DNA from: the human T2T-CHM13v2.0 reference genome, Homo sapiens
Direction: 5' to 3' (one strand)
NCBI RefSeq assembly: GCF_009914755.1
Contig: NC_060931.1
DNA: 64,000 bases
Shown: positions 21,611 to 24,238 of the stretch, one piece after another
How the letters are laid out: every line of letters begins with the position of its first letter
Position numbering within the stretch: position 1 is the first letter of the stretch
Made by a program: the position numbers and the translations under genes
The notes under the pieces: generated by a model
Seen by the model: the letters and a program-made list of their open reading frames with translations, nothing else
What the model was told of the DNA's origin: nothing
The model's database searches: none

Positions 21611-23071
21611 AGATACGTGTAGGAAAAAATATTCTGATTTATAGGGTCAATGTTTTTCTGTCATGAGTCAAGTATAAGTAAAATGTTTTCAAAACAAAAA
21701 CATTAGTTTGGGCTCAGCAGAAAAGTCTACTGAGTTGCACTGGATAATTAGATGTTACAGATTCCCTGTTGTGCACAAGTGTGGTGTGCTCAGAGTACAT
21801 CACACTTGGCACACACTGGTTGAATGCTAGAATCACCTGAGGAGCTTTTAATAAACACAGCTGCCCAGAACACACCTGAGATTTCCTAAGGATAGGGCTC
21901 ACATCTCTGTATTTTTAAAAATTACCTTGCTACTCTATTATCTGATTTTAGAGCTCAGTGGCTAAGAGTTGACTTATCACTGGGAGCCCTTTATTTTTAC
22001 TCTTTGTAACTGCTAACTTTGTCATGGTATTCAAATGACCTCCACATGTATGCCTCATATTCCAATGCCCAGATGTAGAAAAGAGGTTAAAAAGAAGCAA
22101 TAGAAGTGCACTATTCTTTTAGAAATAGGAAAGAAACACCCTTTGACCATACTAAATAACTGCATTCGATTCTTGAGAGAAGGAGATTGCTAGACGTAGT
22201 CCTTTTGATTTTATTTCTTATAAAGTTTTGCATTCCTAAAATGTGTATTTTATTCTTAAAGAGGACCGTGGATTAGGTCATCAGGAATGTTAAGCGGGGG
22301 TCAGAGAGACTATTGCAAGCCTACTTTGTTCAGAATGGTGCTTCCAGTACCTACAGGAGAGGCTGCCCCATTTTAGTCACTCAGTAAACCATTTTTTGAG
22401 TGAAGAAATGACTCTGGGCTGGAAATTTAATCAGAGAAGAATCCATTTCTCTGGATGTTTTATTTTGCTATTTCTAATTTATTTACTCTTTTGAAAAATT
22501 GCAAACACACTATCAAATACCCAGAAAGTGGCAGCCTAGGTCCATTTCCCTCACACTTAACCACAACTCTACATGGTTGACTAGATGAAACGTGTGTGGG
22601 AGTGTTGTGAAAACCAAGCACAGTGCAAATGTATTATTAGCCAATTTTTCTACCAGTCCACCTCTCCTTGCTAGTTTTTTCTTAATTATCTCTGTATCCC
22701 CAGCATAATAAGCAGTGAGTAATGTATGTGACATAAAAACAAACAAAAAAAAATCACTGACTTAGATACAGTAAACATTGAAGGCTTTCTTTCTGCATAT
22801 GCATGCCCTCTGAATCTCTTAAAACTGTTTATCATTTTTTTGTGCAAACACAGAGCCAGAGCTTGTGTTTTTGTTTCTACTTAAATGTAATTATATTATT
22901 CTATGTCTTTATTGTATACTTGATGATATACCTTCACTAATTTTCTACATCAGTATTTAAACATTTTTCTTAATTTTTAACTACTGAAGAGGAGTGGACA
23001 GGACTCATGCAATGACATTTATGTAGCCATCCTCTTATTGATGGGCATTTGTTTTGTTTCTTATTGGGGGA

Positions 23072-23134
23072 AGTCGGTAGAACATGAGATTCTTAATCTC
23101 AGGGTCCTGGGTTTAAGCCCCAGGTTGGGAGCCA
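23072..23134 (+). pseudogene. 5'-truncated copy of tRNA-Lys(CTT) with encoded CCA, joined to the MER11 U5 end
   Basis: AGTCGGTAGAACATGAGATTCTTAATCTCAGGGTCCTGGGTTTAAGCCCCAGGTTGGGAGCCA matches recalled tRNA-Lys-CTT nt 14-76 at 56/63; first 13 nt absent, so not a functional gene. Confidence 0.9.
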
Positions 23135-23136
23135 GA

Positions 23137-24149
23137 TATCGGCGGAACCCGCTCCCAATGTTTCAACATAGGTTCTTTCTATTTTCCATAAGCATCAGCT
23201 GGCTGAGAAATAAAGAGAAAGAGTACAAAGAGAGGAATTTTACAACTGGGCCTCCAGGGGTGACATCACATATTGGTAGGACCATGATGCCCACCTGAGC
23301 CTTAAAGCCAGCAAGTTTTATTAAGGATTTCAAAAGGGGAGGGGGTGCAAGAACAGGGAGTAGGTCACAAAGATCACATGCTTCAAAGGGCAAAAAGGAG
23401 AACAAAGATCACATGCGTCTGAGGAAACAGGACAAAAGGCAAAACAGAACTACTGATAAGGGTCTATGTTCAGCTGTGCACGTATTATCTTGATAAACAT
23501 CTTAAACAACAGAAAACAGGGTTCGAGAGCAGAGAACTGGTCTGACCAAAAATTTACCAGGCTGGAATTGCCCAATCCTAGTAAGCCTGAGGGTACTCCA
23601 GGAGACCAGGGCATATTTCAGTCCTTATTTCAACCGCATAAGACAGACACTCCCAGAGCGGCCGTTTATAGATCTCCCCCAAGGAATGCAATTCCTTTCC
23701 TAGGGTCTTAATATTAATATTCCTTGCTAGGAAAAGAATTTAGCGATATCTCTCCTACTTGCACGTCCATTTATAGACTCTCTGCAGGAAGAAAAATATG
23801 GTTCTTTTTGCCCGACCCTGCAGGCAGTCAGACCTTATGGTTGTCTTCCCTTGTTCCCTAAAAATCAGTGTTATTCTGTTCTTTTTCAAGGTGCACTGAT
23901 TTCATATTGTTCAAACACATGTGTTTTACAATCAATTTGTACAGTTAACACAATTATAGTGGTCCTGAGGTGACGTACATCTTCAGCTTACGAAGGTAAT
24001 AGGATTAAGAGATTAAAGTAAGGCAGGCATAAGAAATTATAAGAGCATTATTTGGGAAGTGATAAATGTCCATGAAATCTTCACATTTATGTTCCTCTGC
24101 TGTGGCTCCAGCCAGTCCCTCCGTTTGGGGTCCCTGACTTCCCGCAACA
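23137..24149 (-). mobile_element. MER11 (HERV-K11/HML-8) LTR, ~1013 bp
   Basis: Minus strand begins TGTTGCGGGAAGTCAGGGACCCCAAACGGAGGGACTGGCTGGAGCC and ends GGTTCCGCCGATA, as in the recalled MER11 consensus. Confidence 0.88.
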
Positions 24150-24238
24150 GTTTCTTTTGTTTTTATATCCCATGTTCGAATATTTCTGTAGTATAGATTC
24201 CTATAAATGGAATTTCTTGTTATTAAAAGCACATTTAA

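What the first reader, a model, noticed from the sequence alone, without database searches (positions are those of the whole stretch)
23056..24155. LTR-tRNA-att chimera: probable fossil of reverse transcriptase reading through its tRNA-Lys primer and still being integrated
Seen in sequence, on the + strand: TSD gtttct (23056-23061); TATTGGGGGA (23062-23071), a second copy of the MER11 U5 tip (compare TATCGGCGGAA at 23137); 63 nt of tRNA-Lys(CTT) ending in the non-templated CCA (23072-23134); GA; a full MER11 LTR; TSD gtttct (24150-24155). On the LTR strand the PBS sits 2 nt after U5 as usual, but tRNA complementarity continues 45 nt past the 18-nt PBS, through the T-arm, anticodon and into the D-arm. 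Established knowledge: plus-strand strong-stop synthesis normally halts at m1A58 of the primer after 18 nt, and betaretrovirus-like HERV-K integrases make 6-bp TSDs. Inference: RT copied a hypomodified or unwound primer almost fully, then switched template to the U5 tip and regenerated an att end that integrase used. This is neither a recombination-derived solo LTR nor an L1-made tRNA pseudogene (no poly-A, single shared TSD). It would be a retroviral route for fixing tRNA copies in the genome.
Basis: partly seen in the sequence, partly recalled or inferred. Interest (0 to 1): 0.85.

Follow-up and report, generated by a model that had tools for sequence, protein, structure and literature searches.

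The report
Retroviral LTR fused to its tRNA primer
An ancient HERV-K-type retroviral LTR in a SCIN intron carries a DNA copy of 63 bases of the lysine tRNA that primed its reverse transcription plus a re-copied LTR tip, a real molecular fossil of a replication error that recurs at about ten places in the human genome.

Summary
Between two perfect 6-bp target duplications (GTTTCT) lie four pieces. They are a 10-11-nt copy of the LTR's U5 tip, tRNA-Lys(CTT) nt 14-76 with CCA (53/60 to the gene), the spacer GA, and a full 1013-bp MER11-type LTR on the minus strand.

Two of two true HML-8 proviral 5' ends leave tRNA homology within the PBS, so the extra 45 nt are not viral sequence.

Own-genome searches found nine sibling loci where tRNA-Lys(CTT)+CCA+GA abuts an LTR U5 end. 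Two siblings share the window's layout: target duplication, U5-tip copy (54 nt, or about 400 nt), tRNA, GA, LTR, target duplication.

Position A58 is a transversion in 3 of 10 copies (P about 1e-4), which looks like a methyl-A read-through signature.

Best reading: plus-strand DNA read through the primer tRNA, re-annealed inside U5, ran off a normal end, and integrase inserted it. Whether only one LTR was ever present is unresolved.

Read-through inserts are already documented in HIV-1 proviruses, so this is a new variant of a known kind. Orthologous primate sites could not be checked.

The parts
23056..23061 (+). Left copy of the 6-bp target-site duplication, GTTTCT
   Evidence: It is identical to 24150-24155. 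The hexamer frequency on this strand is about 4e-4 per position.
23062..23072 (-). Stub: a second copy of the last 10-11 nt of U5 (LTR sense TTCCCCCAATA). The base at 23072 is shared with tRNA A14.
   Evidence: It matches 10/11 to the tip carried by 5 of 8 other copies and is identical to the tip of L003. The one difference is a CpG G>A.
23072..23134 (+). DNA copy of tRNA-Lys(CTT) nt 14-76 in tRNA sense, ending in the post-transcriptional CCA. On the LTR strand it is the PBS plus 45 further nt of tRNA complement.
   Evidence: It matches 53/60 to gene L012 and CCA is intact. The anticodon CTT is at the expected place in the Rfam alignment.
23117..23134 (-). The 18 nt that correspond to the normal primer-binding site (tRNA nt 59-76)
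   Evidence: Proviral copies L008 and L085 share homology only up to this stretch.
23135..23136 (-). Two-base spacer, GA on the + strand and tc in LTR sense, between U5 and the PBS
   Evidence: The same tc is present in L003, L008, L019 and L085. GA follows CCA in 9 of the 10 LTR-linked tRNA copies, with GG in L020.
23137..24149 (-). Complete MER11-type (HML-8) LTR of 1013 bp, running TGTTGCGGG...CCGCCGATA in LTR sense
Evidence: One search gives end-to-end alignments to L004, L005, L006 and L003. One search gave 41 matches genome-wide (lower bound).
24150..24155 (+). Right copy of the target-site duplication, GTTTCT

Best explanation
This is the integrated product of an aberrant reverse transcription of an HML-8 (HERV-K-type) retrovirus.

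Plus-strand DNA made on the minus-strand LTR did not stop after 18 nt of the still-attached primer tRNA-Lys(CUU). It copied the tRNA from nt 76 back to about nt 14. Its 3' end then left the tRNA and re-annealed, with 1 nt of overlap, to the minus-strand DNA 10-11 nt from that strand's 5' end. It ran off there and recreated a normal U5 terminus.

Integrase used this end together with the U3 end and made the family's usual 6-bp target duplication.

Shown: the anatomy, the identity of each piece, the normal proviral PBS boundary, and the recurrence of the same layout elsewhere.

Inferred: the order of events; that the acceptor was a minus-strand 5' end freed of its tRNA; and how the locus came to have one LTR. 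It may have had one LTR from the start, as an extreme case of the 'deferred second-strand transfer' seen in HIV-1, with the stub as the remnant of the 3' LTR. Alternatively a two-LTR provirus with this 3' end recombined later.

The locus has no evident present function. It lies antisense in a SCIN intron.
For: Anatomy and piece identities.

Normal boundary. Two of 2 genuine HML-8 5' ends leave tRNA homology within the PBS and share a leader: L008 (Gag_p10 9.9e-13, Gag_p24 2.9e-24) and L085. In one search, only the window's own locus covers the tRNA part, among 41 scored matches.

Same layout elsewhere. L051 reads GGGAAG | 49-54-nt U5-tip copy (47/49 to its own LTR tip) | tRNA nt 7-76+CCA | GA | 990-bp LTR | GGGAAG. 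L024 reads CACTT | about 400-nt LTR 3' part ending at the U5 tip | tRNA 14-76 | GA | (repeated) | full LTR | CACTT.

Recurrence. Ten loci have tRNA-Lys(CTT)+CCA+GA/GG+U5 end.

A58 is a transversion in 3 of 10 copies, against a background of 5/531 non-CpG site-copies, P about 1e-4.

6-bp duplications occur in 3 of 4 ordinary solos.

Published precedent. [quoted passage not shown]
Against: The stub is only 10-11 nt and overlaps the tRNA by 1 nt.

The inverted U3 tip shares AGTC with the tRNA and is 12/14 alike (pair I16), so microhomology alone would favour that rival.

This copy keeps A at position 58, so there is no direct trace of how the stop was passed.

Its tRNA part holds 3 of the 4 CpG transversions seen in all ten copies, including a compensatory C49:G65 pair that no present gene shows. 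This is unexplained.

No outgroup genome could be examined, so a single insertion event rests on the duplication and on the parallels.

Seven of the ten loci do not share the tidy layout. They show no duplication, a 55-bp duplication, inverted gag, or rRNA pieces.

The own-genome searches score only the best candidates, so all counts are lower bounds.
Confidence: 0.85

Rival explanations
1. The read-through is the same, but the terminal stub is an inverted copy of the U3 tip. In this version the plus-strand 3' end (...GACT) annealed to AGTC at nt 11-14 of a plus-strand U3 5' end and copied it. The element would then carry two U3-type ends, and integrase used those.
For: (I16): 23064-23075 is 92% complementary to 24136-24147. 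There is 4 nt of microhomology, against 1 nt for U5.
Against: Over the 10 stub-specific bases, U5 fits 9/10 and the one difference is a CpG transition. Every one of 8 U3 tips examined differs at 2 or more positions, including the end (ATA against ACA). The two parallel loci L051 and L024 carry unambiguous U5-end copies of 54 and about 400 nt.
Confidence: 0.06
2. A provirus had an HIV-type tRNA insert after its 5' PBS, or an ordinary two-LTR provirus was present. A later genomic deletion unrelated to reverse transcription then happened to remove everything up to 11 nt before the 3' end.
For: Deletions in old proviruses are common. The outcome would look the same in a single genome.
Against: The deletion would have to start exactly at the distal end of the tRNA copy and stop 11 nt from the provirus end. 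The same coincidence would be needed at L051 and L024.
Confidence: 0.05
3. There were two independent events: an LTR integrated next to an older tRNA-Lys retropseudogene, or an L1-made tRNA retrocopy landed next to an LTR.
For: tRNA retrocopies without an LTR do exist. L010 has CCA, an A-run and roughly 30-nt flanking repeats.
Against: The tRNA's CCA is separated from U5 by exactly the 2-nt proviral spacer, in the primer orientation. It is the cognate primer tRNA. There is no poly-A. One 6-bp duplication encloses everything. The same junction recurs at 9 other loci.
Confidence: 0.02

Closest known systems
HIV-1 defective proviruses with tRNA(Lys3) inserts ('deferred/aberrant second-strand transfer'; PMC12657518, passages read)
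   Same: The plus strand runs past the PBS into the primer tRNA (7-54 nt there, 45 nt here). It then transfers to minus-strand DNA at a non-PBS site, and the product is integrated.
   Different: Here the acceptor is 10-11 nt from the very end of the minus strand. No internal viral sequence is left, and a U5 end is recreated. The virus is a betaretrovirus-like ERV primed by tRNA-Lys(CUU). The event is fixed in the germ line and decades of millions of years old.
Cloned circular MLV DNA with a reverse-transcribed tRNA between the LTRs (Colicelli and Goff 1986; seen only as described and cited in PMC12220202; the paper itself is not held)
   Same: A primer tRNA left on the minus strand is copied into DNA next to U5.
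   Different: That case was an unintegrated circle from a mutant virus with a spurious tRNA-Gly primer. There was no regenerated end and no target duplication.
Ordinary MER11 solitary LTR (504 solitary LTRs against 78 proviruses in PMC10194239, passages read)
   Same: It is a full LTR with a 6-bp target duplication, of the same family and similar divergence.
   Different: 75 extra nt (spacer, tRNA copy, U5 stub) lie between U5 and the duplication. Simple LTR-LTR recombination of a normal provirus cannot produce them.
L1-mediated tRNA retropseudogenes (general knowledge, recalled; L010 may be one)
   Same: It is a DNA copy of a mature, CCA-bearing tRNA.
   Different: There is no A-tail. The duplication is 6 bp. 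The tRNA is truncated at its 5' end at nt 14 and fused to a retroviral U5 through the proviral 2-nt spacer.

Membership tests
MER11 / HML-8 LTR | Full-length similarity to other genomic copies of the LTR | tested here: met
   positions 1-1013 align to L004 (89.4%), L005 (88.3%), L006 (84.3%) and L003 (83.6%).
MER11 / HML-8 LTR | The same LTR flanks a betaretrovirus-like internal region with a Lys PBS | tested here: met
   In L008 the LTR is followed by tc, a PBS, a leader, Gag_p10 and Gag_p24. L085 has the same PBS and leader.
MER11 / HML-8 LTR | Match to the curated Dfam/Repbase MER11 model and subfamily | not testable with these tools
No repeat library is held.
tRNA-Lys(CTT)-derived sequence | Sequence identity to tRNA-Lys(CTT) genes, anticodon in place, and a 3' CCA that is not gene-encoded | tested here: met
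   53/60 plus CCA against L012. See also the Rfam alignment.
tRNA-Lys(CTT)-derived sequence | Complete cloverleaf (a functional gene) | tested here: not met
   Nt 1-13 are absent. Rfam gives 23.8 bits, below the gathering score of 29. ARAGORN finds nothing.
Primer-tRNA read-through product of plus-strand synthesis | U5, the proviral spacer and the PBS, continuing without a break into the cognate primer tRNA beyond nt 18 | tested here: met
   Normal proviruses stop within the PBS.
Primer-tRNA read-through product of plus-strand synthesis | Misincorporation or stop signature at modified tRNA positions | tested here: inconclusive
   The window copy keeps A58. Across the ten loci, A58 is a transversion in 3.
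Integrase-mediated insertion | Family-typical target duplication directly abutting LTR-type termini at both ends | tested here: met
   GTTTCT is 6/6 at both ends and the ends are ...CAACA and ...CAATA. Duplications of 6 bp occur in 3 of 4 solos.
Recombination-derived solitary LTR | The target duplication directly flanks both LTR ends | tested here: not met
   75 nt lie between U5 and the left duplication. Recombination of a provirus with an already aberrant 3' end is not excluded.
L1-mediated retropseudogene | A 3' A-tail and a longer, variable target duplication | tested here: not met
   There is no A-run at either junction and the duplication is 6 bp.

The most novel reading that the evidence does not exclude
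Read-through of the primer tRNA, followed by re-annealing inside the LTR, is a recurrent germ-line pathway of HERV-K-type viruses. It yields integration-competent 'strong-stop' mini-elements: one LTR, a tRNA copy and a U5 stub, made without LTR-LTR recombination.

This pathway would account for most CCA-bearing tRNA-Lys(CTT) retrocopies in the human genome. Some of these are called as tRNA genes by gene finders.

The copies would also preserve a record, tens of millions of years old, of how RT met tRNA modifications. That record would consist of the A58 transversions and the break points clustered at nt 11-15 beside G10.
Probability: 0.4. Interest if true: 0.75.

Novelty: new variant of a known kind. 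Interest (0 to 1): 0.6.

Why it matters
It shows that plus-strand read-through of the primer tRNA does not always make dead-end DNA. One paper in the field states that such cDNA cannot be integrated (PMC8599865, discussion passage). Here the product re-created a usable U5 end, was integrated with a normal target duplication, and became fixed in primates.

It gives a retroviral origin for a set of tRNA-Lys 'genes/pseudogenes'. ARAGORN of the 9 sibling copies as tRNA-Lys.

It warns that some 'solitary LTRs' may never have had a second LTR.

It offers natural sequence data on RT behaviour at m1A58 and near the D-arm.

It has no evident bearing on SCIN function.

Tried and rejected
ARAGORN on the region found no gene.

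The Rfam weak hits to mir-8364, mir-9428 and MEG8 (E 1.8-4.9) are chance.

The inverted-U3 reading of the stub was considered and ranked low.

I looked for an extant tRNA-Lys gene with the window's C49:G65 pair. None was among the 20 candidates.

Literature searches for earlier descriptions of LTR-tRNA read-through fossils in endogenous retroviruses found none (eight full-text searches). They did find the HIV-1 and MLV precedents. The HML-8 census paper has 0 occurrences of 'PBS' or 'tRNA' in its main text, and its supplementary list of solitary LTRs was not opened.

PMC12220202 (tRNA-Gly next to HIV proviruses) concerns a non-primer tRNA and was set aside.

The Colicelli and Goff paper is not held.

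A scan for other primer tRNAs and other ERV classes was not run.
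Full report
**What is there**

On the + strand of the window the region reads as follows:
- GTTTCT (23056-23061)
- TATTGGGGGA (23062-23071)
- AGTCGGTAGAAC...GGGAGCCA (23072-23134)
- GA (23135-23136)
- TATCGGCGGAACC... up to ...CCCGCAACA (23137-24149)
- GTTTCT (24150-24155)

**The LTR**

Read on the minus strand, 24149-23137 is a complete LTR of 1013 bp (TGTTGCGGG...CCGCCGATA). It aligns end to end with other copies in the same genome: L004 at 89.4%, L005 at 88.3%, L006 at 84.3% and L003 at 83.6%. A search of the window's own assembly gave 41 matches to its U5 part, with only 40 of 1198 candidates scored, so this is a lower bound.

In locus L008 the same LTR is followed by tc, a lysine-type PBS, a leader and gag (Gag_p10 E 9.9e-13, Gag_p24 E 2.9e-24). 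That fits the HERV-K(HML-8) group described in PMC10194239 (passages read): 78 proviruses, 504 solitary LTRs, and main activity 43-17 million years ago.

**The tRNA piece**

Positions 23072-23134 match tRNA-Lys(CTT) genes of this genome over nt 14-73 at 53/60 and end in CCA, which genes do not encode.
- The seven differences are G24A, C32T, G49C, C56T, G57A, C65G and C72A.
- The anticodon-stem pair is of the A29:U41 kind, as in gene L012.
- Rfam aligns the anticodon loop correctly but scores 23.8 bits, below the gathering score of 29, because nt 1-13 are missing.
- ARAGORN finds nothing.

On the LTR strand the order is U5, tc, then the complement of tRNA nt 76 down to nt 14. This is the normal 18-nt PBS followed by 45 further nt.

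**Is the extra tRNA part of the virus?**

No. Two of 2 genuine proviral 5' ends (L008, and L085 on C17) have the same tc spacer and a PBS. After 16-17 nt they run into a shared leader (..ttttctttctcctaagtgcatgtggg..) that has no tRNA homology.

In one search only the window's own locus covers the tRNA part. Three copies reach into the PBS and no further.

**The stub**

In LTR sense the element ends ...GACTTCCCCCAATA, followed by the duplication.

U5 tips: of 8 other copies, 5 end TTCCCCCGATA (L004, L005, L007, L019, L085). One ends TTCCCCCAATA exactly like the stub (L003), one ends ..CCTGATA (L006) and one ends ..CCCGGTA (L008). The stub's single difference from the commonest tip is a CpG G>A.

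The 11-mer with up to 1 mismatch occurs twice in the 64-kb window, against 0.5 expected. Both occurrences are in this element.

A rival came (pair I16). Read on the + strand, the stub plus the first tRNA bases (TATTGGGGGAAGTC) also resembles the U3 tip (TGTTGCGGGAAGTC, 12/14), and would be joined through 4 nt of microhomology. Over the 10 stub-specific bases, however, U5 fits 9/10. All 8 U3 tips differ at 2 or more positions, including the terminal ATA against ACA. The parallels described below settle it for U5.

**The duplication**

GTTTCT flanks the unit on both sides with no spare base. On this strand the hexamer occurs 28 times in 64 kb. Three of 4 ordinary solo copies examined have perfect 6-bp duplications: TTTTAC, CCTTTA and GGTACC. 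L006 has none. The whole unit therefore looks like one integrase-made insertion.

**Sibling loci**

I searched the assembly in four ways:
- with the tRNA piece (20 candidates, all scored);
- with a 26-nt pattern of the tRNA 3' end including CCA, up to 3 mismatches (26 hits, 0 in the reversed control);
- with two LTR-tRNA junction queries (40 of 406 candidates scored, 40 of 89 scored).

Besides true genes, these gave nine further places where tRNA-Lys(CTT) in sense, CCA and GA (GG once) are followed by the antisense U5 end of an LTR.

Two siblings carry MER11-like LTRs:
- L019, C7:98.37 Mb
- L047, C11:54.70 Mb

Seven siblings carry, or in L025's case retain about 20 nt of, another HERV-K-type LTR. 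I recall it as MER9-like, which I did not test:
- L011, C19:55.01 Mb
- L020, C16:2.95 Mb
- L024, C1:39.37 Mb
- L025, C19:38.12 Mb
- L030, C5:26.30 Mb
- L032, C15:93.55 Mb
- L051, C18:46.28 Mb

For that second family, at least 13 rows end at the 18-nt PBS. This shows the ordinary proviral boundary there too.

**Two siblings repeat the window's architecture**

L051 reads: GGGAAG | 49-54-nt copy of the U5 tip (47/49 to the tip of its own LTR) | tRNA nt 7-76+CCA | GA | 990-bp LTR | GGGAAG.

L024 reads: CACTT | about 400 nt of the LTR's 3' part, starting exactly at the U5 tip | tRNA nt 14-76 | GA | the same unit again | full 981-bp LTR | CACTT. A CTCA microhomology sits at the LTR-tRNA joint, and the units are 96-98% alike.

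So in three independent loci the DNA beyond the tRNA copy is LTR sequence in the same orientation. It ends precisely at the U5 terminus and abuts a target duplication.

**The other seven siblings are untidy**

- L019 sits in an Alu, with no clean duplication and a (T)AGTC overlap.
- L011 has a 55-bp target duplication, 53/55.
- L030 and L032 show no duplication.
- In L020 the tRNA is preceded by gag in sense (Gag_p10, Gag_p24, and a CYNCGQIG zinc knuckle running into the tRNA).
- In L025 the tRNA is preceded by 28S rRNA pieces. It is followed by only about 20 nt of U5 and then antisense protease/G-patch.
- In L047 the LTR is cut short.

These look like one-ended or host-repaired insertions and multiple template switches.

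**Traces of the tRNA's state**

Across the ten copies, A58 is changed in three: A>T in L011 and L025, and A>C in L020. All three are transversions. The background for non-CpG transversions is 5 in 531 site-copies, which gives P about 1e-4 for 3 or more of 10 at this pre-specified site. This fits read-through of m1A58 with misincorporation, and the HIV-1 study reports the same kind of change in 5 of 44 inserts (PMC12657518).

The window copy keeps A58. That is compatible with an unmethylated primer but does not prove it.

The tRNA copy breaks off at nt 11-15 in 4 loci (window, L019, L032, L024) and at nt 1-7 in 6 loci. The first cluster lies just before G10, which I recall to be m2G in this tRNA. 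That is a lead, not a test.

Unexplained: the window copy holds 3 of the 4 CpG transversions seen in all copies, including G49C and C65G, which keep a T-stem pair. No present gene among the 20 candidates has that pair.

**Mechanism**

Established knowledge: plus-strand strong-stop DNA is copied from U3-R-U5 of the minus strand and from the first 18 nt of the attached primer, and m1A58 is required for that stop in vitro (PMC8599865, passages). HIV-1 proviruses with 7-54 nt of tRNA(Lys3) at deletion junctions show that read-through products can transfer to other sites on the minus strand and be integrated (PMC12657518, passages).

Here the transfer went to the last 10-11 nt of the minus strand's U5 (54 nt and about 400 nt in the siblings). 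The strand then ran off a normal end, presumably after RNase H had removed the tRNA, and integrase could act.

Two routes to the present single LTR remain open.
- In the first, the short plus strand bridged both ends of a full-length minus strand, and replication of the heteroduplex gave the short form directly.
- In the second, a two-LTR provirus with this aberrant 3' end later recombined. With a solo-to-provirus ratio of about 7:1 in this group (PMC10194239), the second route is not unlikely.

The sequence of one genome cannot decide between them.

**Rivals**

- An inverted U3 tip (see the stub section).
- A later chance deletion.
- Two independent insertions. This is excluded in practice by the exact proviral spacer, the cognate primer, the orientation, the single duplication and the recurrence.
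- L1-made retrocopies. There is no A-tail and the duplication is 6 bp.

**Novelty**

Eight full-text searches found no description of such fossils in endogenous retroviruses. The mechanism itself is known from HIV-1, and from a cloned MLV circle that I saw only as cited in PMC12220202. I therefore class this as a new variant of a known kind.

It is of moderate interest for three reasons:
- It shows that read-through products can regain a usable end and reach fixation.
- It explains a set of tRNA-Lys look-alikes, since ARAGORN of 9 siblings as genes.
- It suggests that some solitary LTRs never had a partner.

**Limits**

- No outgroup genomes and no repeat library were available.
- The own-genome searches score only the best candidates.
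- The supplements of PMC10194239 were not opened.
- Other primer tRNAs and other ERV classes were not scanned.

Noticed in passing
L003 (G000:C7:129549579-129552720), LTR end at locus position about 1624: A MER11 LTR is followed by tc, 16 nt of PBS and ATA, then the 6-bp duplication CTGAGA inside an Alu, with no internal viral sequence. It looks like a strong-stop-length insertion. Its last bases (G)ATA equal the U5 tip, so it may be a minimal version of the window's layout.
   Followed up: partly
L033, L037, L040, L044, L053, L054 (for example G000:C17:50039263-50039288): Six copies of another ERV family carry 26 nt of tRNA-Lys(CTT) complement, not 18, next to their LTR (GG(G/A)TTCGAGCCCCACGTTGGGCGCCA, then cttgctgagaccagctcgg...). 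This is a family-wide extended PBS reaching through the T-loop. It may be an inherited short read-through.
   Followed up: no
L025 (G000:C19:38119315-38122379): This is a chimera of rearranged 28S rRNA pieces, a full tRNA-Lys(CTT)+CCA joined at GCCCGGCT-like microhomology, GA, about 20 nt of U5, then antisense retroviral protease/G-patch (RVP, G-patch). ARAGORN calls it a tRNA-Lys gene.
   Followed up: partly
L020 (G000:C16:2952779-2955842): HERV-K gag is in sense (Gag_p10, Gag_p24, zinc knuckle) and runs directly into tRNA-Lys in sense, followed by an antisense LTR. This is an inverted arrangement. It implies a switch from the tRNA 5' end onto a plus-sense viral template at GCCC(A/G)G microhomology.
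   Followed up: partly
L011 (G000:C19:55008346-55009404): An LTR plus a near-complete tRNA copy is flanked by a 55-bp target duplication (53/55) instead of 5-6 bp.
   Followed up: partly
L010 (G000:C1:54838082-54838144): A full tRNA-Lys(CTT) copy with CCA and no LTR is flanked by roughly 30-nt imperfect direct repeats and an A-run. It is probably an L1-type retrocopy. It is the only CCA-bearing long copy found that is not linked to an LTR.
   Followed up: no
window 23107-23124: The window's tRNA copy has C49:G65 in place of G49:C65, a compensatory double transversion at two CpGs, plus C72A. No present tRNA-Lys gene among the hits shows this. The cause could be a lost isodecoder, RT errors or chance.
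   Followed up: partly
window 23137-23165 and other MER11 copies: The last roughly 25 nt of the MER11 U5 form an imperfect palindrome (ATATTGGGGG..CCCCCGATAT in most copies), so the U5 3' end could fold back on itself. Its relevance to the re-annealing step is unknown.
   Followed up: no
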